DNA from: Escherichia phage mEp013
Strand: one strand, 5' to 3'
Length of the DNA: 52,961 nucleotides
Sequence record: PP180002
The stretch's first letter is position 1, and every line of letters begins with the position of its first letter. Positions 61 to 10,141 of the stretch are shown here, piece by piece. The notes under the pieces were generated by a model. That model saw nothing but the letters and a program-made list of their open reading frames with translations. It had not been told where the DNA came from and searched no databases. The position numbers and the translations under genes are program-made.

Positions 61-129
61 ATCGTGTCACATCGTTACCGCTTCACCTTGATTTTAAAAG
101 AAATATTTATTCTATCGTGTCATATCGTT
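61..129. repeat. two 16-bp direct repeats ATCGTGTCA(C/T)ATCGTT (61-76 and 114-129) upstream of int; candidate Int arm-type or regulatory sites
   Basis: Read directly; 15/16 identical copies 53 bp apart, related TCACATCGTG at 57-66. Confidence 0.35.
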
Positions 130-160
130 CCCCATTGTGTTACTATCCATGCGTAAAATG

Positions 161-182
161 TGTGTACCAAATAGTGACCAAA
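161..182. repeat. left copy of 22-bp direct repeat TGTGTACCAAATAGTGACCAAA (att-associated: core or Int arm site)
   Basis: 21/22 identical to 52891-52912; ends 3 nt before int ATG; itself two tandem ~11-mers GTG(T)ACCAAA. Confidence 0.45.
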
Positions 183-185
183 ATT

Positions 186-1385
186 ATGCTTACAGATACC
201 AAATTACGAAACATTCACGGCAAGCCATACGATGGCCCGGAAGAAGTACCGGACGCTGGCGGATTGTCTGCCAGGATAAGCCCGCGCGGAGTTATATCTT
301 TCCAGTACCGCTACCGATTCAACGGCAAGCCTCGACGGATGAAGATCGGCACATACGGAGAAATAACACTCAAGGAAGCGCGGGCGGCGGTGGCGGAGCA
401 TAAGGAAGTTCTAAACTCAGGTCGAGATCCATCGGTAGCAAAAAGAATGCGCCTTTCCCGCGTTACGACACGGGCAACGGTTGAGGATATTGTAATGGAG
501 TACATGGGATCGCCGCAGGCAAGGAACATGGTCAATTATAAGCAGGTTGAGGCCATGCTAGATAAGCACGTCATAAAACCATACGGTGGCTATATAGTCG
601 ATGATATGGACGCTATGATGTGGGAAGGTGTTTTTAGAAGGGTTGCTAATGGTGGCGCACCAGTTCAGGCAGGTATAGTTCTCAACAGAATGAAGGCCGT
701 AATAAAATACGCCATGCGCCGCCGCCGCGTGGATCGTGACGACATATCATTACTGTGCGTTAAAGACGTTGGCAAAAAACCAGCGCAAGGCAAGCGCGTT
801 TTGTCAATACAGGAGATCCACCATCTAATTAGCCTTGTAGACAGTTCAAAAATGGCGAGGCTGAATCAGATATTGATGAAGCTGATTATATTTACCGGGT
901 GCAGGACAAGCGAACTAACAAACGCAAGGCGAGAGCATTTCGATCTTGATAGCTGTGTGTGGACGGTTCCGGGTGCATTAAGTAAGAACAGGAATGAGTT
1001 TAAACGCGGCTTATCCGACGTTAGCGTGGCTTTATTGCGTGAGGCTATGGATCTGCATAGCTTTGATTTTGTCTTCGTTCCTGTGCTTTCTGGAAGGGAT
1101 GAAGCGGTGGACAGGAGCGTTCCTAAAACAGCAGCAAGGGATTTAATGATGAGGATGTGCGGCGAGCCGTGGTCGTGTCACGATCTACGCCGCACCGTGA
1201 GGACAAACCTTTCAGCGCTTGGCGTTGCGCCTCACGTCGCGGAAAAGGTTTTGGGGCATAAGCTGGCGGGGATGTTGGCTATATACGATCAGTATGACTA
1301 TGTGAGGGAACAAATAGAGGCGATGAATAAACTGGCTGATTATTACATGAAGCCCATTGATTTACAAAATGAAATAACGTCCTGA
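186..1385 (+). CDS. int: tyrosine recombinase, P4-type phage integrase
   Basis: N-terminus MLTDTKLRN..GGL and C-terminal HxLRRT-type region typical of P4-like integrases; ATG at 186 chosen inside longer ORF 117..1385. Confidence 0.9.
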   Translation: MLTDTKLRNIHGKPYDGPEEVPDAGGLSARISPRGVISFQYRYRFNGKPRRMKIGTYGEITLKEARAAVAEHKEVLNSGRDPSVAKRMRLSRVTTRATVEDIVMEYMGSPQARNMVNYKQVEAMLDKHVIKPYGGYIVDDMDAMMWEGVFRRVANGGAPVQAGIVLNRMKAVIKYAMRRRRVDRDDISLLCVKDVGKKPAQGKRVLSIQEIHHLISLVDSSKMARLNQILMKLIIFTGCRTSELTNARREHFDLDSCVWTVPGALSKNRNEFKRGLSDVSVALLREAMDLHSFDFVFVPVLSGRDEAVDRSVPKTAARDLMMRMCGEPWSCHDLRRTVRTNLSALGVAPHVAEKVLGHKLAGMLAIYDQYDYVREQIEAMNKLADYYMKPIDLQNEITS

Positions 1386-1561
1386 TAACGGTAAAGAGAG
1401 CCGCCGCGCTTTAACGCTGGCATTCCCTTAACAGGTTCCGGAAAAGGAGTTCCGGAATCTTTCCATTTTTTAACCAGTTTAAAAAATGCTGACTTACTAA
1501 GCCCGCCTAACATTTTTTGCACTTGCTCGCGATTAATAAGTATTGTGCCGATTTTATCCAT
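1343..1561 (-). CDS. putative excisionase / AlpA-like HTH protein
   Basis: 72 aa, Xis/AlpA-like pattern (LINREQVQKMLG..FPEPVK..RGGSLYRYQDV); RBS GGGGA; TAATG coupling with upstream gene; convergent overlap with int 3' end lowers confidence. Confidence 0.4.
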   Translation of the reverse strand: MDKIGTILINREQVQKMLGGLSKSAFFKLVKKWKDSGTPFPEPVKGMPALKRGGSLYRYQDVISFCKSMGFM

Positions 1562-2378: not shown

Positions 2379-2816
2379 TTAACCATTATTGCCCCAGCGT
2401 TTTATAAATTCCTCGTTTAACTTCGTATCGCCAGACCACTGAACACCATGTTCAGCGCCGAACGAGTAGATCAGTTCGATTAATTCGCTAAATTCTGCTT
2501 TACTCATCCGGCTGGTTGACGTACCCAGCACAACAAACCCTGATTTATCCAGGTTAGGGACAACGCCATATTTCTTAAGTCCGGCAGTAAATACCGCTTT
2601 CCAATCTTCCGGTGACAGCTTTTTGCCGTACCAATTAACCTGATCGCTAACGTCTGTCAGCAGCGCCCAAAGCAACGCGTTTTGACTCAGTGAGCGTGTT
2701 TTCTCCTTGATGGTAATTACCAGTGGGCTTTTGCTATCAGGCTGGATCTCCTTTATCTGCCTGATAGCGTTTTCTTTTACGGCGTCGTTTACTATTTCAA
2801 ATCTTATCTGCCTCAT
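2379..2816 (-). CDS. ninB: NinB-family recombination protein
   Basis: 145 aa; close match in length and motifs to lambda NinB as recalled (SLSQNALLWALLTDVS, VVPNLDKSGFVVLG). Confidence 0.8.
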   Translation of the reverse strand: MRQIRFEIVNDAVKENAIRQIKEIQPDSKSPLVITIKEKTRSLSQNALLWALLTDVSDQVNWYGKKLSPEDWKAVFTAGLKKYGVVPNLDKSGFVVLGTSTSRMSKAEFSELIELIYSFGAEHGVQWSGDTKLNEEFIKRWGNNG

Positions 2817-3010
2817 AATACACCGTTGCTATTTTTCCACTGTGCCCGCGCATACATGATCGCCCGCAAAGAAATTAGGCGCGAGCTTGTCATAAAAGCG
2901 CTTTTTAAGTACCTCATATCAACCACAACAGGTTTATCAGGATCGTCGCCGCGCATGTATTCCGCAATTGTGCTTAAGTCTTCAACGGTTAAATCTAACT
3001 CTTTATTCAT
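2813..3010 (-). CDS. hypothetical protein (65 aa)
   Basis: ORF with RBS AAGGGG; ATGA-type overlap with ninB. Confidence 0.5.
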   Translation of the reverse strand: MNKELDLTVEDLSTIAEYMRGDDPDKPVVVDMRYLKSAFMTSSRLISLRAIMYARAQWKNSNGVL

Positions 3011-3019
3011 GATCGCCCC

Positions 3020-3226
3020 TTACACAATCCGCATTGTGTTTCGTAATTCACCGCGCAACGCCTGCAAAGCGTAACTAATTGGCACAAAAGCACGGTTAAA
3101 TTTTACGTGCCTGTACTTGCGCATAAGTGGAGGTGTATAAACCATCGCACCGCAAGAATTGCATGGAAATGTAAAGTGAGATTCGTCAATGAATGTTTCA
3201 ACTGAATAAAAAATTACCCGTCTCAT
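3020..3226 (-). CDS. hypothetical protein (68 aa)
   Basis: ORF in operon context; start overlaps upstream gene end. Confidence 0.45.
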   Translation of the reverse strand: MRRVIFYSVETFIDESHFTFPCNSCGAMVYTPPLMRKYRHVKFNRAFVPISYALQALRGELRNTMRIV

Positions 3227-3780
3227 AATTCCAACCCCGTTTCGCCGTTAAGTTTTTCAATCTCAAATACTGGTTTATCAGGTAGCAGGCCGTTATTTTT
3301 CCGGTATTCGTTCAGACGGCTGTCAAAGTCAAACGCCAAATCATTGGCGTGACCAAATCGACCAGGTTTAAACAGTGAGTAAAAATTAACCCCGTGTCTA
3401 TTTGGATCAACGCAAAGCGTTTCATCAATCACCATTAAACGCAGAGTACGAGAAAGATAATTCCACGGTATTCCCGTTTCAGCGCTAATGTCGCGCATAC
3501 GCTTTTTAACGCTGTAGTCACCAAATAACGACGCGACACGCTCACGACGTTCAGCATATAACTGTTTGATACGATAACCCAGCAGACGGCGGCGGCGTCC
3601 AAAACATGTATACACGCGCTCGACGATACCGTTTTTTATTAAGTGTTTAATTGTCTCAGGCAGTAACCCGTCTTTGTCATATCCAGCCAATAACCCCGTT
3701 TTATTGCGTAACTGGTGCATTGTTGCGATGCCATCAAGTTCAAGGATATTGATAACTTTTGTTTCAAGTTCAGCGCTCAT
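3223..3780 (-). CDS. hypothetical protein (~185 aa; start uncertain, ORF extends to 3816)
   Basis: ATG at 3780 has GAGG RBS; GTG at 3816 lacks one. Confidence 0.55.
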   Translation of the reverse strand: MSAELETKVINILELDGIATMHQLRNKTGLLAGYDKDGLLPETIKHLIKNGIVERVYTCFGRRRRLLGYRIKQLYAERRERVASLFGDYSVKKRMRDISAETGIPWNYLSRTLRLMVIDETLCVDPNRHGVNFYSLFKPGRFGHANDLAFDFDSRLNEYRKNNGLLPDKPVFEIEKLNGETGLEL

Positions 3781-3859
3781 TGCTTTTAGCCTCATTAAAA
3801 ACGCGATAACAGCCACCAGAAAGCGGTAAACTTTCCGGTAAGCCGTTTGCTCATATTGA

Positions 3860-5275
3860 TTAAAAAGATGCGTTATTCTGATTGTTTCGTTGGTTAAAAC
3901 GGCTTGTGCGATGATTCATTGACTGAATGCACGCGGCAGCGGCCCTGCCCTGGTCGCATGGTATGATGTTGCCGTTATCGTCAAACCGCTGGTAGACAGT
4001 CCCCGTTTTCCCGTGACGGTTTTTCGATACAATGATTTCCATATATTCGCGGGCAACAGACTGCTCATCGTAGTAGCCATCGCGGTACACCATGATGATC
4101 CTGTCAGCGTCCTGTTCAAGATTGCCGGAATCACGAAGATCCGAATTGTTAGGACGCTTGTTCGGTCGTTCCTCAACGCGGCGGGATAATTGCGCCAGCG
4201 CCAGCACCGGTACGCGCAATTCTTTCGCCATCATCTTCAACGACCATGACAATTGCCCTACGGCGAGATCATGACGTTCAGCCTTAGCCAGCTTCATCAA
4301 CCCGATGTAGTCAATCATTACCATACCCATGTTGGGATGTTCCTGTTTCATCCGTTCCGTGGTGGCGCGTATTTCCTCAACCGTTAACTGCGACGCGTCA
4401 ACGATCCACACATCAAGATTAGCAAGTGCGCTCATACCCTGGCCGACATGCGCCCACCCCTCATCATCAAGTTTTACCGGATTGCGCAGGCAGTCAGTTG
4501 ATAAATTTCCAGCGCCAGCTATGGCGCGCTCAGTCATCTGATCGAGCGACATTTCAAGCGTGAAGAACAAAACGCCAACCCGCTGATCCTTGCTGCCAGG
4601 GTAAGGGCGTTCAGCAGCAGCGCGGGCAATTGCCAGCGCCAACGCAGATTTACCAGACCCAGGGCGTCCGGCGAGAAGCACCAGATCAGTAGCGTTAATG
4701 CCGCCTAACATTTCGTCGAGTGGTTCTATCCCTGTTTTGATGTTGTCAGAATTGACACCGCACTCCATGCGCTTACTTAAAACTTCTGTGTACTCCTGGA
4801 CAGCATCGCGCAACAGAACAGGGATAATCTTGTCTTTAGTTACCTTTAATTTTGAATACCGGGAATCAAAATCTTTCATCGTCTCTTTGACGACCTCAAG
4901 CGTCCCCGTCTCCAGTTTGTAGCGCATATCGTCGATGAGTTCTAACATCTGCCGACGCTGGTGCTCTTCACGTAATAGCTGTGCGTATCCCTTCAGGTTG
5001 GCAGCAGAAGGACACGATCGCGCCGTTTGCATCAGCGGTACAAAATTTTCGTTGCCAATCTCATCACCAACCAGCAAGGCGTCGATAAGATTCCTGTTTC
5101 TGGCTTGCGCCCTGATAATTTCAAACGCACGTTTATACAGCGGAATCGTGAACACTTCAGGATCAAGAGTGGCGAGAACATCTTGCGCGTTAGGAGTTAG
5201 GCCGCCTAACAGCAGCCCGCCGATAACTGACGCTTCACGTTCCTGCCGTAGTGAGTTTATTTGCTCAGTTACCAT
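3860..5275 (-). CDS. replicative DNA helicase, DnaB family
   Basis: 471 aa; DnaB N-terminal signature SVIGGLLLG and Walker A GRPGSGKS. Confidence 0.9.
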   Translation of the reverse strand: MVTEQINSLRQEREASVIGGLLLGGLTPNAQDVLATLDPEVFTIPLYKRAFEIIRAQARNRNLIDALLVGDEIGNENFVPLMQTARSCPSAANLKGYAQLLREEHQRRQMLELIDDMRYKLETGTLEVVKETMKDFDSRYSKLKVTKDKIIPVLLRDAVQEYTEVLSKRMECGVNSDNIKTGIEPLDEMLGGINATDLVLLAGRPGSGKSALALAIARAAAERPYPGSKDQRVGVLFFTLEMSLDQMTERAIAGAGNLSTDCLRNPVKLDDEGWAHVGQGMSALANLDVWIVDASQLTVEEIRATTERMKQEHPNMGMVMIDYIGLMKLAKAERHDLAVGQLSWSLKMMAKELRVPVLALAQLSRRVEERPNKRPNNSDLRDSGNLEQDADRIIMVYRDGYYDEQSVAREYMEIIVSKNRHGKTGTVYQRFDDNGNIIPCDQGRAAAACIQSMNHRTSRFNQRNNQNNASF

Positions 5276-6445: not shown

Positions 6446-6982
6446 TCATTGACAGCAAACAATCTCTTTATATGCCTCTTCTACCATGTCGAATACTTCC
6501 GGCCTGTAATAGAAAAACTCATTGCTGCCATCAAATTTTACAGGAAAGTTAATTTTATAATTGCTGAAATATTTATGCATCGTGCTTTCTAGTTTATGTA
6601 TATTTTCGGTTGACCCTTCTAACGTTTTCACGATACACAAATCAGGGATTCTAACGCCTGCTTTATGTGCGCTTTTTAATATTTCATTTCTTCGCTCGTT
6701 ATCCTTAACGCTTACACCGATTTTCATTTGTGTAGGTAATTCCAGATCATCAACCATGATGTAAAGTTTGCCATACTCATAACTAAGGAAACCGTATTTC
6801 GCGCATTTTGGGCAGCCGCGCCCGCGCTTAAGGTCGCTAGGAGTAGCCGACCACTCATGATCACAAACCTTACAGCGGCATGATACTTTTGTTTTGCAAT
6901 TGATAATTTCTCCCAACACTTCAACATTGGGGTTAATTCTTGAGATAGCGGCAACTTGCTCCTTATGAGTTAACTTGCGCAT
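6446..6982 (-). CDS. zinc-ribbon plus GIY-YIG-like (T5orf172/MUG113-type) protein, single-repeat paralog of 39479..40789
   Basis: One LTHKEQVAAI..C.C..C.HEW..GCPKC repeat then GKLYIMVDD..KIGVS..ERRN..EFFYY domain shared with the 436-aa protein; ATG at 6982 has RBS AGGAG. Confidence 0.7.
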   Translation of the reverse strand: MRKLTHKEQVAAISRINPNVEVLGEIINCKTKVSCRCKVCDHEWSATPSDLKRGRGCPKCAKYGFLSYEYGKLYIMVDDLELPTQMKIGVSVKDNERRNEILKSAHKAGVRIPDLCIVKTLEGSTENIHKLESTMHKYFSNYKINFPVKFDGSNEFFYYRPEVFDMVEEAYKEIVCCQ

Positions 6983-7115
6983 TGTCATAGCTCCTAAAAA
7001 CGCATCAGACGCGCTACAACGCAAAAAATCCCACCGCGTAACCCACTTGTAAGGGTGCAGTGTCTTTTTTGCGCCAGAAGCGCAATCAGGTGGCTAATTT
7101 TTGATTTACAGACTG

Positions 7116-7359: not shown

Positions 7360-8358
7360 TCAAAGAGCGCCAGCGCGTGTATCACGTAGCGTTTTTGGTT
7401 TAAGCAGGAAATCAAGTGTCGCAGTAAAGCCATTGCCGAAGTAAAAATCTGAAGCCGTGTTTTTGAACGTTTCGAAGTAGGCAACAAAGCCGTTAATGCT
7501 TTTATCTTTCAGGTAGTCAGTGAACGCATAGATCTTTCGTTCAAGATCCCGATCCAGTTCAGCAGGTGGCAACAGGCCATCAAACGTGATGTTAAACTCT
7601 TCCACCACATCGGCAGCGCTTACAGTAGCTGTAACTCTTCGCCATTGTTCAGCCTTTGCCCGGTATTCATCAAAGCGGCTTACCCTGGCGATCTTTATCG
7701 GTTCCGGTTTAAACGACCATGTTTCCGCTATCCAGTCGATAACCATGATCAAATCTTCTTCAGTATATGCGCCTCGTGTTTTTGTTTTCTTCAGTAGGTT
7801 AACAAAGTATTTTTTCTCCTTATGCTTGCTATTAAACTTGTTGTTATAGTGATCGAGTACGCGCGACGCTGCCAAATCAGCCGCCCGATCTTCTTCGCTG
7901 ATAGACTCGTCTTTTTCCAATACACGAAGTGTATTGTTTTTAATGTTCTCTTTACTGGTTATATATGACTGGTTAGGGTGACTCTGTGACACTACCCCCG
8001 GTGACTCTGTGTCACTACCCTGGTGACTCTGTGACACTACCCCCGGTGTCACAGTGACACTACCATGTAATGACGGGAGGACTATTACATAGAAATTACT
8101 AGTTTGCTCTTTTCCTCCGATCAAGTATCTTGGTTGTTTAATCAACAACCCTTTTTCACAAAGTGAGTCTACAGCCCTCATAGCTGTTCTTTTGCTGATC
8201 TCACACTCCTTTGCTATGTGATGGTAAGAAGGGTAACACTCGCCGTTATCATTAGCGTTATCAGCTAACTTCAACAGCACTAGTTTGTGCATTGGGTCGC
8301 CGACCTCAGTATGGAAGACTTCTACCATTAGCCGCATACTCATAAGCATTAACCTCAT
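7360..8358 (-). CDS. replication initiator, lambda O-like (phage replisome organiser N-terminal domain) with internal iterons
   Basis: N-terminal wHTH (ISKRTAMRAVDSLCEKGLLIK); in-frame repeated GVVSQSH peptide encoded by four 22-bp iterons; start not resolved (8358 vs downstream ATGs). Confidence 0.75.
   Translation of the reverse strand: MRLMLMSMRLMVEVFHTEVGDPMHKLVLLKLADNANDNGECYPSYHHIAKECEISKRTAMRAVDSLCEKGLLIKQPRYLIGGKEQTSNFYVIVLPSLHGSVTVTPGVVSQSHQGSDTESPGVVSQSHPNQSYITSKENIKNNTLRVLEKDESISEEDRAADLAASRVLDHYNNKFNSKHKEKKYFVNLLKKTKTRGAYTEEDLIMVIDWIAETWSFKPEPIKIARVSRFDEYRAKAEQWRRVTATVSAADVVEEFNITFDGLLPPAELDRDLERKIYAFTDYLKDKSINGFVAYFETFKNTASDFYFGNGFTATLDFLLKPKTLRDTRAGAL
7977..8066. repeat. four ~22-bp iterons GGTGACTCTGTGACACTACCC inside the O-like gene (candidate origin of replication)
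   Basis: Direct repeats at 7977, 8000, 8022, 8045, each with an internal inverted GTGAC/GTCAC; mirrors lambda ori inside O. Confidence 0.7.
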
Positions 8359-8364
8359 GACGAA

Positions 8365-8610
8365 CTAAAACATTAACTGATAAACACAGAAGAAACCTGG
8401 CAGCTGACTGATTAGGCCGCTTCTTTTCAGTTGATGCAGTGCAGAGATAGTGTCACGTAACGAAATTTCGCACATTTCAGCGATTTCTTCCGGCGTTACT
8501 TCGCTTTTGCCGTTGCATCCGGCCTTTGTTGCCAGTGCAATTAAGATGAGTTTTTGCGTCGGATCATTGTTATTCAGGCGAATATCAAAAGCCTTGCGAA
8601 CGTAATACAT
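8365..8610 (-). CDS. Cro-position winged-HTH DNA-binding protein (81 aa)
   Basis: First gene divergent from cI; RBS AGGAGAAAG; aligns with N-terminal domain of the O-like protein (DP.QKLILI..EISLRD); may be Cro- or CII-like. Confidence 0.55.
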   Translation of the reverse strand: MYYVRKAFDIRLNNNDPTQKLILIALATKAGCNGKSEVTPEEIAEMCEISLRDTISALHQLKRSGLISQLPGFFCVYQLMF

Positions 8611-8915
8611 GTTTCTTTCTCCTATGGTTAGGTGAACGCGCGGGCGGGTATCCAATTAGCATTAGATAGCAGTGACTGACCGCTGAACAGATCCCGCCGT
8701 TGCGTGATATTTGTTTTTCGCTTCGCAGCGACACCGGGTTTTTAAAGAGCTTTTAAGGTATGTGCCTTTTGTGCTTTCCCTTATCTCTTTCCTTGCATCA
8801 TTGCAAGTTCGGCTTTACCTTGTCTGTAAGTTTACAGAATGGCGTTAACAGATCAAGGATTGAAAATTACATTTTGTGACTTGCATCAAAATTTTTTAGG
8901 TTATAGGGTAGCGAC

Positions 8916-9563
8916 ATGAAAACAAAATGGTATGACCTGGCAAAACAACTCATGCGGGCGCAGGGCATGAGTCAAGATTCATTGGCAGATCTCATGGGGA
9001 TCACTAAAGGCGGCTTGTCACACTGGCTTAACGGTCGCCGCGAGCCAAATCTTGAAGACATTGCGCGGATTATGCGGGCGCTTGGGCGTCGGCAGTTCAC
9101 TGTCACACATGATGGAATGGTCATTGATGACTCTGTTTCTAACACGTTGCCGGGAGCGCCACCGCGTGATTTAGGCAGTTACCCGGTTGTTGACTGGAAG
9201 GATGTAGTAAACAATATGGAAGATGCAAGGCGATCAACATTACCACACGTTACGACTAGCGTTATTTGTTCAGATGATAGTTATTGGCTGGTAGCTAAAG
9301 GCGAATCAATGAACGCGCCGCAAGGATTGAGTATACCAGCGGGGACGATGATACTTGTCGATCCGCACGCGCCAGCTATTGACGGAAAACTGGTTATAGC
9401 CCAACTGGAGGAGGGGCAGATACCGACGTTTAAACAGTTGATTATTGATGGAGGCAGAAAACTTTTGCGTTCACTGAATCCGTTGTATCCGCCAATCCCT
9501 ATGAATCCAGAATCTAAAATCATAGGCGTGGTAGTGGATGCGAAGATCGTAAACCTGCCATAA
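8916..9563 (+). CDS. cI: CI-type repressor (HTH_XRE plus S24 LexA-like peptidase domain)
   Basis: N-terminal HTH (MSQDSLADLMGITKGGLSHWLNG); C-terminal autocleavage domain with GESM Ser and downstream Lys. Confidence 0.85.
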   Translation: MKTKWYDLAKQLMRAQGMSQDSLADLMGITKGGLSHWLNGRREPNLEDIARIMRALGRRQFTVTHDGMVIDDSVSNTLPGAPPRDLGSYPVVDWKDVVNNMEDARRSTLPHVTTSVICSDDSYWLVAKGESMNAPQGLSIPAGTMILVDPHAPAIDGKLVIAQLEEGQIPTFKQLIIDGGRKLLRSLNPLYPPIPMNPESKIIGVVVDAKIVNLP

Positions 9564-9568
9564 ACACT

Positions 9569-9593
9569 AGCCGCCTGATGGCGGCTTTTCTTT
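9569..9593 (+). terminator. rho-independent terminator after cI
   Basis: AGCCGCC-TGAT-GGCGGCT hairpin followed by TTTTCTTT. Confidence 0.7.
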
Positions 9594-9686
9594 GCCGGAA
9601 AAACACCAAAACGTAAACAGAAAACGTTATTTATTGTTTAAATATCAATAACATATAAAATATTTTAAAAAAGTATACAAAATGGA

Positions 9687-9715
9687 TTGACTCGGTGTTT
9701 TACGGGGCGTATATT
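9687..9715 (+). promoter_or_regulatory. PL-like sigma70 promoter (TTGACT-17-TATATT)
   Basis: Near-consensus hexamers with 17-nt spacer; flanked by 8-bp inverted repeat TTGACTCG/CGAGTCAA; TATACAAAATGG motif directly upstream. Confidence 0.65.
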
Positions 9716-9756
9716 GCGAGTCAAAGGAGGAAGCAAGGCAGGGAAAGAAGGTTACT

Positions 9757-9794
9757 TGCTCTTTAATAATCTGGTCAGCCGCTGGAAGTGCGGC
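9757..9794 (+). promoter_or_regulatory. nutL-like site: boxA (TGCTCTTTAATAA) plus boxB hairpin (GCCGC-TGGAAGT-GCGGC)
   Basis: boxA nearly identical to rrn/lambda boxA consensus; 5-bp stem 7-nt loop hairpin 8 nt downstream; sits between promoter and N-like gene. Confidence 0.55.
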
Positions 9795-9850
9795 AATTAA
9801 CGAAGATGATTTTTTATTAAGTATCATCAAGGATATAAGGAGATCAGATC

Positions 9851-10141
9851 ATGACAGTTACAATCATGTATGGCAAATGTGACAGTAAACTGAATGCCAG
9901 GGAACGCAGAAGAATAAAAAGAGAAAACGAAAGAAAATCATCACCTGCAATCAATAAAACGGACAATGTGGATAAAGCCATTCGCTTTGCAAACGAGGAA
10001 AGATGCAAACCCAATGGCATTAAAGAACGTCGCAAAGGATCAGTTAAATGGTATAAGGAAAACGAAAGCGGCAACTACTACCACGCAACGCAACCACGCC
10101 AGTTAGGGGAAAAACCCCTTGATAAAGTCCGTTACCATTAA
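9851..10141 (+). CDS. N-like antitermination protein (arginine-rich motif)
   Basis: 96 aa, basic; N-terminal ARM NARERRRIKRENERK; first gene after PL/nutL; strong RBS TAAGGAG. Confidence 0.5.
   Translation: MTVTIMYGKCDSKLNARERRRIKRENERKSSPAINKTDNVDKAIRFANEERCKPNGIKERRKGSVKWYKENESGNYYHATQPRQLGEKPLDKVRYH

What the first reader, a model, noticed from the sequence alone, without database searches (positions are those of the whole stretch)
8365..8610. Cro-position protein is homologous to the N-terminal domain of the adjacent initiator
The 81-aa protein in the Cro slot aligns with the N-terminus of the O-like protein (FDIRLNNNDPTQKLILIAL versus FHTEVGDPMHKLVLLKL, then EISLRD/EISKRT), suggesting duplication of the initiator DNA-binding domain. 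No separate Cro-like ORF was found in the 305-bp cI-proximal region, which contains inverted repeats CTTGCA-TCAT-TGCAAG (8792-8807) and TCTGTAA-GT-TTACAGA (8823-8838) as candidate operators.
Basis: seen in the sequence. Interest (0 to 1): 0.4.

Follow-up and report, generated by a model that had tools for sequence, protein, structure and literature searches.

The report
Initiator-like winged-helix cassette, not Cro
The 81-residue protein really is a free-standing copy of the DNA-binding domain found at the front of phage replication initiators, but related phages show it is an optional, swappable add-on to the replication genes and not the phage's Cro switch protein.

Summary
The window is a coliphage of the mEpimmI group (mEp021-like). 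ORF 8365-8610(-) is the orthologue of mEp021 gp14.

**Homology: confirmed.**
- BLASTP against the adjacent initiator gives E=2e-10.
- hhalign gives 99.2% probability, E=6e-20, over the whole domain.
- The best PHROG and BFVD matches are replication initiators.
- The AlphaFold model (pLDDT 91.6) is a winged helix.

**Local duplication: not supported.** The protein is no closer to its neighbour than to unrelated initiators, so this is old family-level paralogy.

**Cro role: not supported.**
- The gene lies downstream of nutL, directly before the initiator. That is lambda's cII position, not cro's.
- In 46 relatives with the same repressor and a conserved regulatory region, the slot holds a 33-38%-identical allele family (b1/b2/b3) or nothing.
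- The gene is precisely absent in 3 loci and in 3 complete E. coli prophages.
- Alleles do not co-vary with operators, iterons or integrase.
- Three remote stand-alone relatives each sit directly upstream of an HTH_36 initiator. Two of these loci also encode a P22_Cro-type protein.

dN/dS of 0.04-0.45 shows the gene is functional.

**Best reading:** an optional accessory cistron of the replication module. The mechanism (modulating initiator or origin assembly) is inferred, not shown.

The parts
8365..8610 (-). 81-aa stand-alone winged-helix (HTH_36-type) protein; orthologue of mEp021 gp14 (mEp021_14); allele 'a' of an optional cassette
   Evidence: ORF and RBS. 97.5-98.8% identical in mEp010/044/554/021. 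Homology to initiator N-domains. AF2 pLDDT 91.6 with H-H-b-H-H-b-b topology. dN/dS 0.04-0.10 within allele a.
8619..8623 (-). Shine-Dalgarno AGGAG, 8 nt before the ATG; last conserved bases of the leader and left edge of the cassette junction
   Evidence: Alignment of 31 distinct leaders: conserved up to AACCATAGGAG, divergent after it. In L010/L015/L044 the same RBS serves the initiator directly.
7360..8343 (-). Replication initiator (mEp021 gp13 orthologue): N-terminal HTH_36 winged helix, iteron-encoding linker, C-terminal domain. Probable start is ATG 8343 (MSMRLMVEV...); an upstream in-frame ATG lies at 8358.
   Evidence: Pfam HTH_36 55.5 bits. PHROG replication initiation families. GAGG 8 nt before ATG 8343, and the relatives start at MSM.
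7977..8064 (.). Four 23-bp iterons (GGTGACTCTGTGACACTACCCCC) inside the initiator gene, next to an AT-rich stretch: the probable origin
   Evidence: TRF score 134, 3.9 copies; repeat families. Iteron sequence varies among type-A relatives together with the initiator's helix 3, but not with the small protein.
8742..8750 (-). boxA of nutL (GCTCTTTAA) on the leftward transcript
   Evidence: Same 9-mer on the + strand at 9758 (nutR1). Invariant in all relatives. nutL is reported upstream of the repressor gene in PMC11893012.
8718..8731 (-). boxB-like hairpin of nutL (TCGCT-GCGA-AGCGA)
   Evidence: Read from the sequence; nearly invariant in relatives. Assignment as boxB is inferred; the original mapping paper was not available.
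8829..8856 (-). Candidate early-left promoter: TTGATC, 16 nt, TAAACT
   Evidence: Read: the hexamers are conserved and the spacer is variable among relatives. It matches 8/12, below the scan threshold, so one search did not list it. Inferred, not mapped.
8823..8838 (.). Inverted repeat TCTGTAA-GT-TTACAGA overlapping the candidate -10
   Evidence: Present. Perfect in only 2 of 46 relatives; the majority form is TTTGTAAACTTGCAGA.
8792..8807 (.). Inverted repeat CTTGCA-TCAT-TGCAAG in the transcribed leader
   Evidence: Present. Arms mostly conserved and centre variable; perfect in 12 of 46 relatives.
8845..8873 (+). Weak promoter-like site toward the repressor gene (TTAACA-17-TACATT)
   Evidence: Consensus scan, 9/12. 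Not conserved as a good match in relatives.
8916..9563 (+). CI-like repressor (Rep, mEp021 gp15 orthologue), HTH_3 + Peptidase_S24
   Evidence: Pfam. 92-100% identical in 44 IMG/VR loci. Function shown for Rep021 in PMC11893012.

Best explanation
The 81-aa ORF is a real gene under selection. It encodes a free-standing winged-helix domain of the kind that forms the origin-binding N-terminus of many phage replication initiators (Pfam HTH_36 type).

It is the first cistron of the early-left operon: candidate promoter, nutL, small gene, initiator with internal iteron origin, nuclease-like genes, DnaB helicase. This operon is presumably repressed by the CI-like Rep and, according to the published work on mEp021, is antiterminated by the N-like Gp17.

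It is not the phage's Cro. It is an optional cassette sitting exactly between a conserved leader/RBS and the initiator start codon. Homoimmune sister phages carry a 33-38%-identical allele family, or no gene at all. The same 'small HTH_36 gene abutting an HTH_36 initiator' pair recurs in unrelated phage or prophage loci, two of which encode their own P22_Cro-type protein.

Most likely it is an accessory of the replication module: a domain-only paralogue made together with the initiator, which tunes or antagonises initiator/origin complex formation, either its own or that of a co-resident relative.

- **Shown here:** gene reality, fold, homology, cassette behaviour, lack of co-variation with operators, iterons or integrase, and the recurrent pairing.
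- **Inferred:** transcription signals, DNA binding, and the modulatory mechanism.

The confidence of 0.5 is for the whole statement. The identity and 'not Cro' parts alone would rate about 0.85, the proposed mechanism about 0.3.
For: **Homology and fold:**

**Phage group and annotation:**

**Operon context with nutL:**

**Cassette behaviour**
- Homology between the window and mEp515 breaks at 7675-8615 and resumes at 8616.
- 46 readable loci carry a (6), b1 (21), b2 (13), b3 (3) or none (3).
- The gene is precisely absent, with the same RBS feeding the initiator, in L010, L015 and L044 and in 3 complete E. coli genomes.
- 12-mers that discriminate b1 from b2 lie almost entirely inside the small gene; 3 in each direction fall within rep.
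- L027 against L018: small gene pN 0.19/pS 0.59; initiator N-terminus pS 0.03; rep pS 0.09.

**Selection:** dN/dS is 0.04-0.10 within a and 0.1-0.45 within or between b alleles.

**Immunity:** one repressor excludes phages with allele a and allele b2 (PMC11893012; alleles).

**Recurrent pairing:** P0010, P0016 and P0014 each lie directly upstream of an HTH_36-type initiator, with a 4-nt overlap. The proteins of each pair are 42%, 30% and 33% identical. P22_Cro-type genes are present in L098/L099 and L100, and a CP76-family gene in L098/L099.
Against: - No experiment addresses the protein.
- Its helix 3 does not co-vary with the iterons. Allele a is invariant while type-A iterons and the initiator's helix 3 change, and b1/b2/b3 all sit beside the same 11-bp iterons. 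A simple 'competes for the same iterons' model is therefore not supported.
- In most sister phages the partner initiator has a Lin1244_N domain, not an HTH_36 domain. This argues against a mechanism that needs two like domains.
- Helix 3 and the wing are the least constrained parts, which is unusual for a sequence-specific DNA binder.
- The phages that lack the gene were not shown to be viable.
- The pairing was sampled in only three remote relatives, and two HTH_36 initiators lack a partner.
Confidence: 0.5

Rival explanations
1. Cro analogue. As first product of the operon divergent from the repressor gene, the protein binds operators in 8650-8915 and shuts down repressor synthesis and early transcription.
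For: It is the first ORF of the leftward operon, no other small regulator lies between the two genes, and it has a DNA-binding fold. No HTH_3-type or P22_Cro-type Cro was found beside the repressor gene on either side, in the parts of the window examined.
Against: - Homoimmune phages with a conserved regulatory region carry 33-38%-identical alleles with different helix 3, or none (immunity data).
- Near-identical leaders go with different alleles (L018 against L020/L027).
- The gene lies after nutL, not between promoter and nut.
- The equivalent small gene coexists with a P22_Cro-type gene in two unrelated loci.
Confidence: 0.1
2. CII-like establishment regulator. This self-contained cassette would have its binding site and an activator-dependent rightward promoter inside its own coding sequence, driving antisense transcription into the repressor gene, as lambda CII does at pRE.
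For: The position is lambda's cII position: after nut, directly before the initiator. Allele differences are almost entirely confined to the gene itself, as expected if protein and site travel together.
Against: - No promoter-like site on the + strand inside 8365-8610.
- No similarity to CII or CP76 families.
- Integrated prophages exist without the gene.
- In L098 the small gene coexists with a CP76-family (phage 186 CII-type) gene.
Confidence: 0.1
3. Orphaned domain turned competition factor. The gene would be the leftover N-terminal domain of an earlier initiator, stranded when a new origin-binding module (domain plus iterons) was inserted. It would be retained because it binds the origins or initiators of competing phages and interferes with them.
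For: - b alleles start MSM..., with the same first 10 nt (ATGAGTATGC) as type-A initiators, and end exactly where the winged helix ends.
- Two initiator N-domain types with different iterons are joined to one C-terminal domain.
- Old alleles persist between near-identical flanks.
- No co-varying site lies within +/-4 kb.
Against: - No full-length initiator with a closely related N-domain was found for a or b.
- No defence-system family match.
- The gene sits in a repressed operon, so it would not protect a lysogen.
- Purely inferential.
Confidence: 0.15
4. Cox/Apl-like bifunctional protein: an early-operon winged helix serving as excisionase (recombination directionality factor) and switch repressor.
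For: P2 Cox is a small winged-helix protein encoded first in the early operon divergent from the repressor gene (own knowledge).
Against: - Every allele occurs with both integrase types (a 3/1, b1 5/14, b2 9/2).
- A 72/76-aa protein next to int co-varies with integrase type wherever both could be read; in 11 further loci cut at the contig end only the small protein was readable.
- The gene is absent from integrated prophages.
Confidence: 0.02

Closest known systems
N-terminal origin-binding winged helix of HTH_36-type phage replication initiators (PHROG 4617/8540/391 'replication initiation O-like'; functionally like the lambda O N-domain)
   Same: Same domain family by sequence profile and fold, over the full domain length. 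Encoded in the replication operon.
   Different: No iteron-encoding linker and no C-terminal domain. Helix 3 differs from the neighbour's and does not track the iterons.
Lambda Cro / P22 Cro
   Same: Small, DNA-binding fold, first ORF of the operon divergent from a CI-like repressor gene.
   Different: Different fold family; located after nut; not linked to the immunity region; optional. Coexists with a P22_Cro-type gene elsewhere.
Lambda CII / phage 186 CII (CP76)
   Same: Gene position immediately upstream of the initiator and downstream of a nut site; similar size.
   Different: No sequence relationship. Dispensable for prophage formation, judging by prophages that lack it. Coexists with a CP76-family gene in L098.
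Domain-only paralogues that modulate a full-length DNA-transaction protein: IS1 InsA vs InsAB', Tn5 Inh vs Tnp, papillomavirus E2-TR vs E2, Mu repressor vs MuA N-domain (own knowledge)
   Same: A short protein consisting of the DNA-binding domain, encoded with or just before the full-length protein that carries a related domain.
   Different: In those systems the two proteins share the binding specificity. Here the recognition helices differ, and most alleles pair with an initiator of another domain family. No functional data.
DnaD N-terminal domain (PF21984)
   Same: Weak profile similarity (E 0.024 for the small protein, 0.0016 for the initiator). It is a winged helix used for oligomerisation, not base recognition (own knowledge). 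This would fit the relaxed helix 3.
   Different: Scores are far below the family threshold. No evidence of oligomerisation.

Membership tests
Pfam HTH_36 (PF13730) | Score at or above the gathering threshold (25 bits) | tested here: not met
   The window protein scores 21.1 bits, E=2.7e-4. One b2 allele scores 32.5 bits and another b-type allele only 14.7 bits. The neighbouring initiator scores 55.5 bits.
Pfam HTH_36 (PF13730) | Homology to family members by more sensitive methods, and winged-helix fold | tested here: met
   hhalign 99.2%, E=6e-20 against HTH_36 initiators. AF2 winged helix at pLDDT 91.6. BFVD top hits are HTH/replication proteins.
Phage replication initiator (O-like, HTH_36 type) | N-terminal origin-binding domain | tested here: met
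Phage replication initiator (O-like, HTH_36 type) | Iteron array within or next to its own gene | tested here: not met
   The only iteron array in this region is 7977-8064, inside the neighbouring gene; none lies in 8365-8610.
Phage replication initiator (O-like, HTH_36 type) | C-terminal domain that recruits helicase or loader | tested here: not met
   The protein ends at the last strand of the winged helix.
Cro (functional class: lytic repressor paired with CI) | Sequence or fold membership in a known Cro family (HTH_3/Cro-CI, P22_Cro, lambda Cro) | tested here: not met
   No such Pfam hit; structural matches are winged-helix proteins.
Cro (functional class: lytic repressor paired with CI) | Belongs to the immunity module: co-inherited and co-varying with repressor and operators | tested here: not met
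   Alleles a/b1/b2/b3/none occur with 92-100%-identical Rep and a conserved leader. Cross-immunity is reported in PMC11893012.
Cro (functional class: lytic repressor paired with CI) | Present in all members that use the switch | tested here: not met
   Absent in 3 of 46 loci and in 3 of 34 E. coli genomes that carry the leader.
Cro (functional class: lytic repressor paired with CI) | Binds the operators shared with the repressor | not testable with these tools
   Needs EMSA or footprinting on 8650-8915.
CII-type establishment activator | Membership in Phage_CII or Phage_CP76 | tested here: not met
   No hit.
CII-type establishment activator | Activator-dependent promoter directed toward the repressor gene | tested here: inconclusive
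   No + strand promoter-like site in 8365-8610, but activator-dependent promoters match the consensus poorly.
Cox/Xis-type recombination directionality factor | Co-variation with integrase/att type | tested here: not met
   Each allele is found with both integrase types. The int-adjacent 72/76-aa protein co-varies with integrase type wherever both were readable.
Known anti-phage defence proteins (PADLOC) | Match to a defence-system model | tested here: not met
   No hit for allele a; only marginal HTH-level hits for b.

The most novel reading that the evidence does not exclude
A recurrent two-gene replication module. A domain-only paralogue of the initiator's winged helix is translationally coupled to the initiator and acts as a built-in antagonist or tuner of origin firing, or as a weapon against the origins of competing phages. 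In the mEpimmI group it survives as an allelic cassette even after the initiator's own DNA-binding domain was replaced by another family.
Probability: 0.2. Interest if true: 0.55.

Novelty: new member of a known kind. Interest (0 to 1): 0.33.

Why it matters
The mEpimmI phages are common temperate coliphages of the human gut, and their switch is only partly described: the repressor, the N-like Gp17 and the nut sites.

This analysis removes an attractive but wrong assignment, gp14 as Cro. It places gp14 with the replication module, so the group still has no identified Cro-like function.

It also exposes a natural experiment. Phages with identical flanks carry four diverged alleles of the gene, or none, and the initiators use two different origin-binding domains on one C-terminal domain. 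If the small protein modulates initiation, it would be a simple, testable case of a domain-only regulator of a phage origin. If it does nothing measurable, it is an ordinary accessory HTH gene.

Tried and rejected
- **Recent tandem duplication.** Rejected: the protein is not closer to its neighbour than to unrelated initiators.
- **Pseudogene or relic without function.** Rejected by dN/dS of 0.04-0.45.
- **Iteron competitor with the same specificity.** Not supported: no co-variation with iterons or with the initiator's helix 3.
- **Excisionase/Cox-like.** Rejected by the integrase cross-tabulation.
- **Defence protein.** No PADLOC or NCBIfam family.
- **Positive selection on helix 3.** pN/pS < 1 in every segment.
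- **Second iteron-like array as a target.** None elsewhere in the window.
- **Shared operator motif between the left and right regulatory regions.** Only boxA and leader similarities were found.
- **Solved structures.** Sequence search gave nothing significant; the PDB fold search gave only generic winged helices.
- **Database searches with allele a and b.** Only close, short relatives in E. coli were returned.
- **tblastn of P0010 against cultured phages.** Only initiator hits, no further tandem pairs.
- **Literature.** The paper that mapped the nut sites (Arch Virol 2023) is not held. The supplements of PMC11893012 do not mention the gene.

Full report
**What the window is.** The region matches the mEpimmI group of temperate coliphages (mEp044, mEp010, mEp554, mEp021) at 91-94% nucleotide identity.

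| Window feature | Identity |
|---|---|
| ORF 8365-8610(-) | Orthologue of mEp021_14, annotated 'putative helix-turn-helix domain-containing protein'; 97.5-98.8% identical |
| Downstream gene | Replication protein gp13 |
| 8916-9563(+) | CI-like repressor Rep (HTH_3 + Peptidase_S24) |
| 9851-10141(+) | N-like antiterminator Gp17 |
| 3860-5275(-) | DnaB helicase |

The group paper (PMC11893012) shows that Rep021 excludes mEp021, 010, 013, 044, 554 and 515. It places a nutL site upstream of the repressor gene. It does not discuss gp13 or gp14.

**Check of the observation.**
- The ORF, its AGGAG RBS and its ATG are as described.
- BLASTP against the neighbour gives 37% identity over 59 residues, E=2e-10.
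- Profile methods confirm and extend this. hhalign of small-protein against initiator alignments gives 99.2% probability, E=6.3e-20, over 85 columns. The best PHROG is a replication-initiation family, E=9.4e-11.
- With a 16-sequence alignment, AlphaFold gives a confident winged helix (pLDDT 91.6).
- Its best matches among viral models are replication proteins (TM 0.84-0.88). The PDB returns only generic winged helices.
- Pfam HTH_36 itself is just below threshold: 21.1 against 25 bits.
- The 305-bp gap has no credible ORF.
- The two palindromes exist, but two such repeats in 305 bp is only marginally unusual (P=0.067). In 46 relatives they are perfect in only 12 and 2 respectively.

**The regulatory leader.**
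- On the leftward strand the gap contains a conserved TTGATC-16-TAAACT promoter candidate (8856-8829). Its spacer is variable among relatives.
- Next come the conserved CTTGCA...TGCAAG element, then GCTCTTTAA (8750-8742) and a GC hairpin (8731-8718).
- The same boxA 9-mer occurs on the + strand at 9758, ahead of Gp17.
- The small gene is therefore downstream of a nut site and directly before the initiator. That is the position of lambda cII, not cro. Nothing is encoded between the promoter candidate and nutL.

**Comparative test.** Using Rep as anchor I fetched 47 IMG/VR loci; 44 have Rep at 92-100% identity. Together with mEp021, mEp515, mEp044 and the window, 46 loci have a readable slot.

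- The leader is conserved up to AACCATAGGAG and then diverges.
- The slot holds allele a (window type, 6 loci), three b alleles (b1 21, b2 13, b3 3) or nothing (3). The b alleles are 33-38% identical to a and 58-76% to each other.
- In L010, L015 and L044 the same RBS feeds the initiator directly. That junction is also found, contiguous and 99.6% identical, in three complete E. coli chromosomes. 34 genomes carry the leader and 4 carry allele a.
- The window and mEp515 are homologous on both sides, but not across 7675-8615.

**What the alleles do and do not track.**
- Initiators come in two N-terminal types on one shared C-terminal domain. Type A is HTH_36 with 23-bp iterons. Type B is Lin1244_N with 11-bp iterons AAAGGGTCATG.
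- Allele a occurs with type A. All b alleles occur with type B, although type B has no HTH_36 domain.
- Among type-A phages, the iterons and the initiator's helix 3 change together while allele a's helix 3 is invariant. Among type-B phages, b1, b2 and b3 sit beside the same iterons.
- 12-mers that separate b1 from b2 lie almost entirely inside the small gene; 3 in each direction fall within rep.
- L027 and L018 differ at pS 0.59 in the small gene, but 0.03 in the initiator N-terminus and 0.09 in rep.
- Two integrase types exist. A 72/76-aa neighbour co-varies with integrase type wherever both were readable. Every small-gene allele occurs with both types.
- The gene is under purifying selection: dN/dS 0.04-0.10 within a and 0.1-0.45 for b. 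Helix 3 and the wing are the least constrained segments, and no segment exceeds 1.

**Is it a copy of its neighbour?** No more than of any family member. The small protein scores 42 bits against its own initiator, 48-50 against two unrelated initiators, and 46-60 against the b alleles. Database searches return only short stand-alone relatives in E. coli for both a and b, and no full-length initiator with a closely related N-domain.

**The arrangement recurs elsewhere.**
- The three remote stand-alone relatives found by the exhaustive search (P0010, P0016, P0014) each lie immediately upstream of a larger protein whose N-terminus is another HTH_36-type domain, with a 4-nt overlap. The proteins of each pair are 42%, 30% and 33% identical.
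- The L098 initiator gene carries 21-bp tandem repeats that look like iterons.
- L098/L099 also encode a CI-like repressor, a P22_Cro-type protein and a CP76-family (phage 186 CII-type) protein. L100 has a P22_Cro-type protein too.
- Two other HTH_36 initiators (P0011, P0013) have no such partner. The pairing is therefore recurrent but optional.

The Cro reading fails four tests that could be run: family or fold, linkage to the immunity module, universality among homoimmune phages, and coexistence with P22_Cro-type genes in analogous loci. The 'duplication of the adjacent initiator domain' reading is not supported as a local event.

The best-supported description is an optional accessory cistron of the replication module that encodes an initiator-type winged helix. 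How it acts is inferred. A domain-only paralogue made in fixed proportion with the initiator could modulate initiator or origin assembly, or interfere with related origins. Against a simple competition model stand the lack of co-variation with iterons and the pairing with Lin1244_N initiators.

CII-like and 'orphaned domain' readings remain possible at low probability. A Cox-like role is disfavoured.

**Verdict.** This is a real gene and a real homology with an ordinary domain. The arrangement is modestly interesting and apparently undescribed. The 'Cro' label should be dropped.

Noticed in passing
window 7360-8343 versus L002 (mEp515) 2561-3616 and most IMG/VR loci: The initiator exists in two chimeric forms sharing one C-terminal domain. 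One has an HTH_36 N-domain with four 23-bp iterons. The other has a Lin1244_N N-domain with about four 11-bp iterons (AAAGGGTCATG) followed by an A-rich tract. This is a clean natural swap of an origin-specificity module.
   Followed up: partly
window 9687-9724 (+): Strong promoter-like site TTGACT-17-TATATT (10/12), upstream of nutR1 and Gp17. It is bracketed by a perfect 8-nt inverted repeat, TTGACTCG (9687-9694) / CGAGTCAA (9717-9724): a candidate operator pair for the early-right promoter.
   Followed up: no
window 8905-8916 and 8010-8021; 8723-8738 and 8042-8057: Iteron-like words occur at the repressor start (TGTCGCTACCCT on the - strand, 11/12 identical to an iteron segment) and within nutL (CCCGGTGTC...). 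Both are conserved even in phages with the other iteron type, so they are probably coincidental.
   Followed up: partly
window 117-1385 (+) and 1343-1561 (-); loci L051-L094: Two integrase types (~50% identical) occur in the group. Each is paired with its own 72- or 76-aa neighbour (~45% identical), which co-varied with integrase type in every locus where both were readable. It is therefore the likely excisionase, although it has no Pfam family.
   Followed up: partly
window 6801-6961 versus L001 (mEp021) 2735-3503: A ~140-160-bp segment of the window's 192-aa zinc-ribbon/T5orf172 endonuclease-like gene (6446-7024) matches five tandem positions in mEp021 gp12. The mEp021 gene therefore carries a repeated domain array that the window phage has only once.
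   Followed up: no
window 9735-9758 versus L001 6447-6685: mEp021 has about 240 bp, including its tiny gp16, between the repressor terminator and nutR1. The window phage lacks this stretch.
   Followed up: no
window 8611-8915 and 9564-9850: No canonical Cro-type gene was found on either side of the repressor gene in this phage group, so the lytic-side regulator of the switch remains unidentified.
   Followed up: partly
window 3223-3816 (-): A 197-aa protein just downstream of the DnaB helicase gene on the minus strand matches a PHROG 'MarR family transcription regulator' (E=6e-9). It is another uncharacterised DNA-binding protein in this gene block.
   Followed up: no
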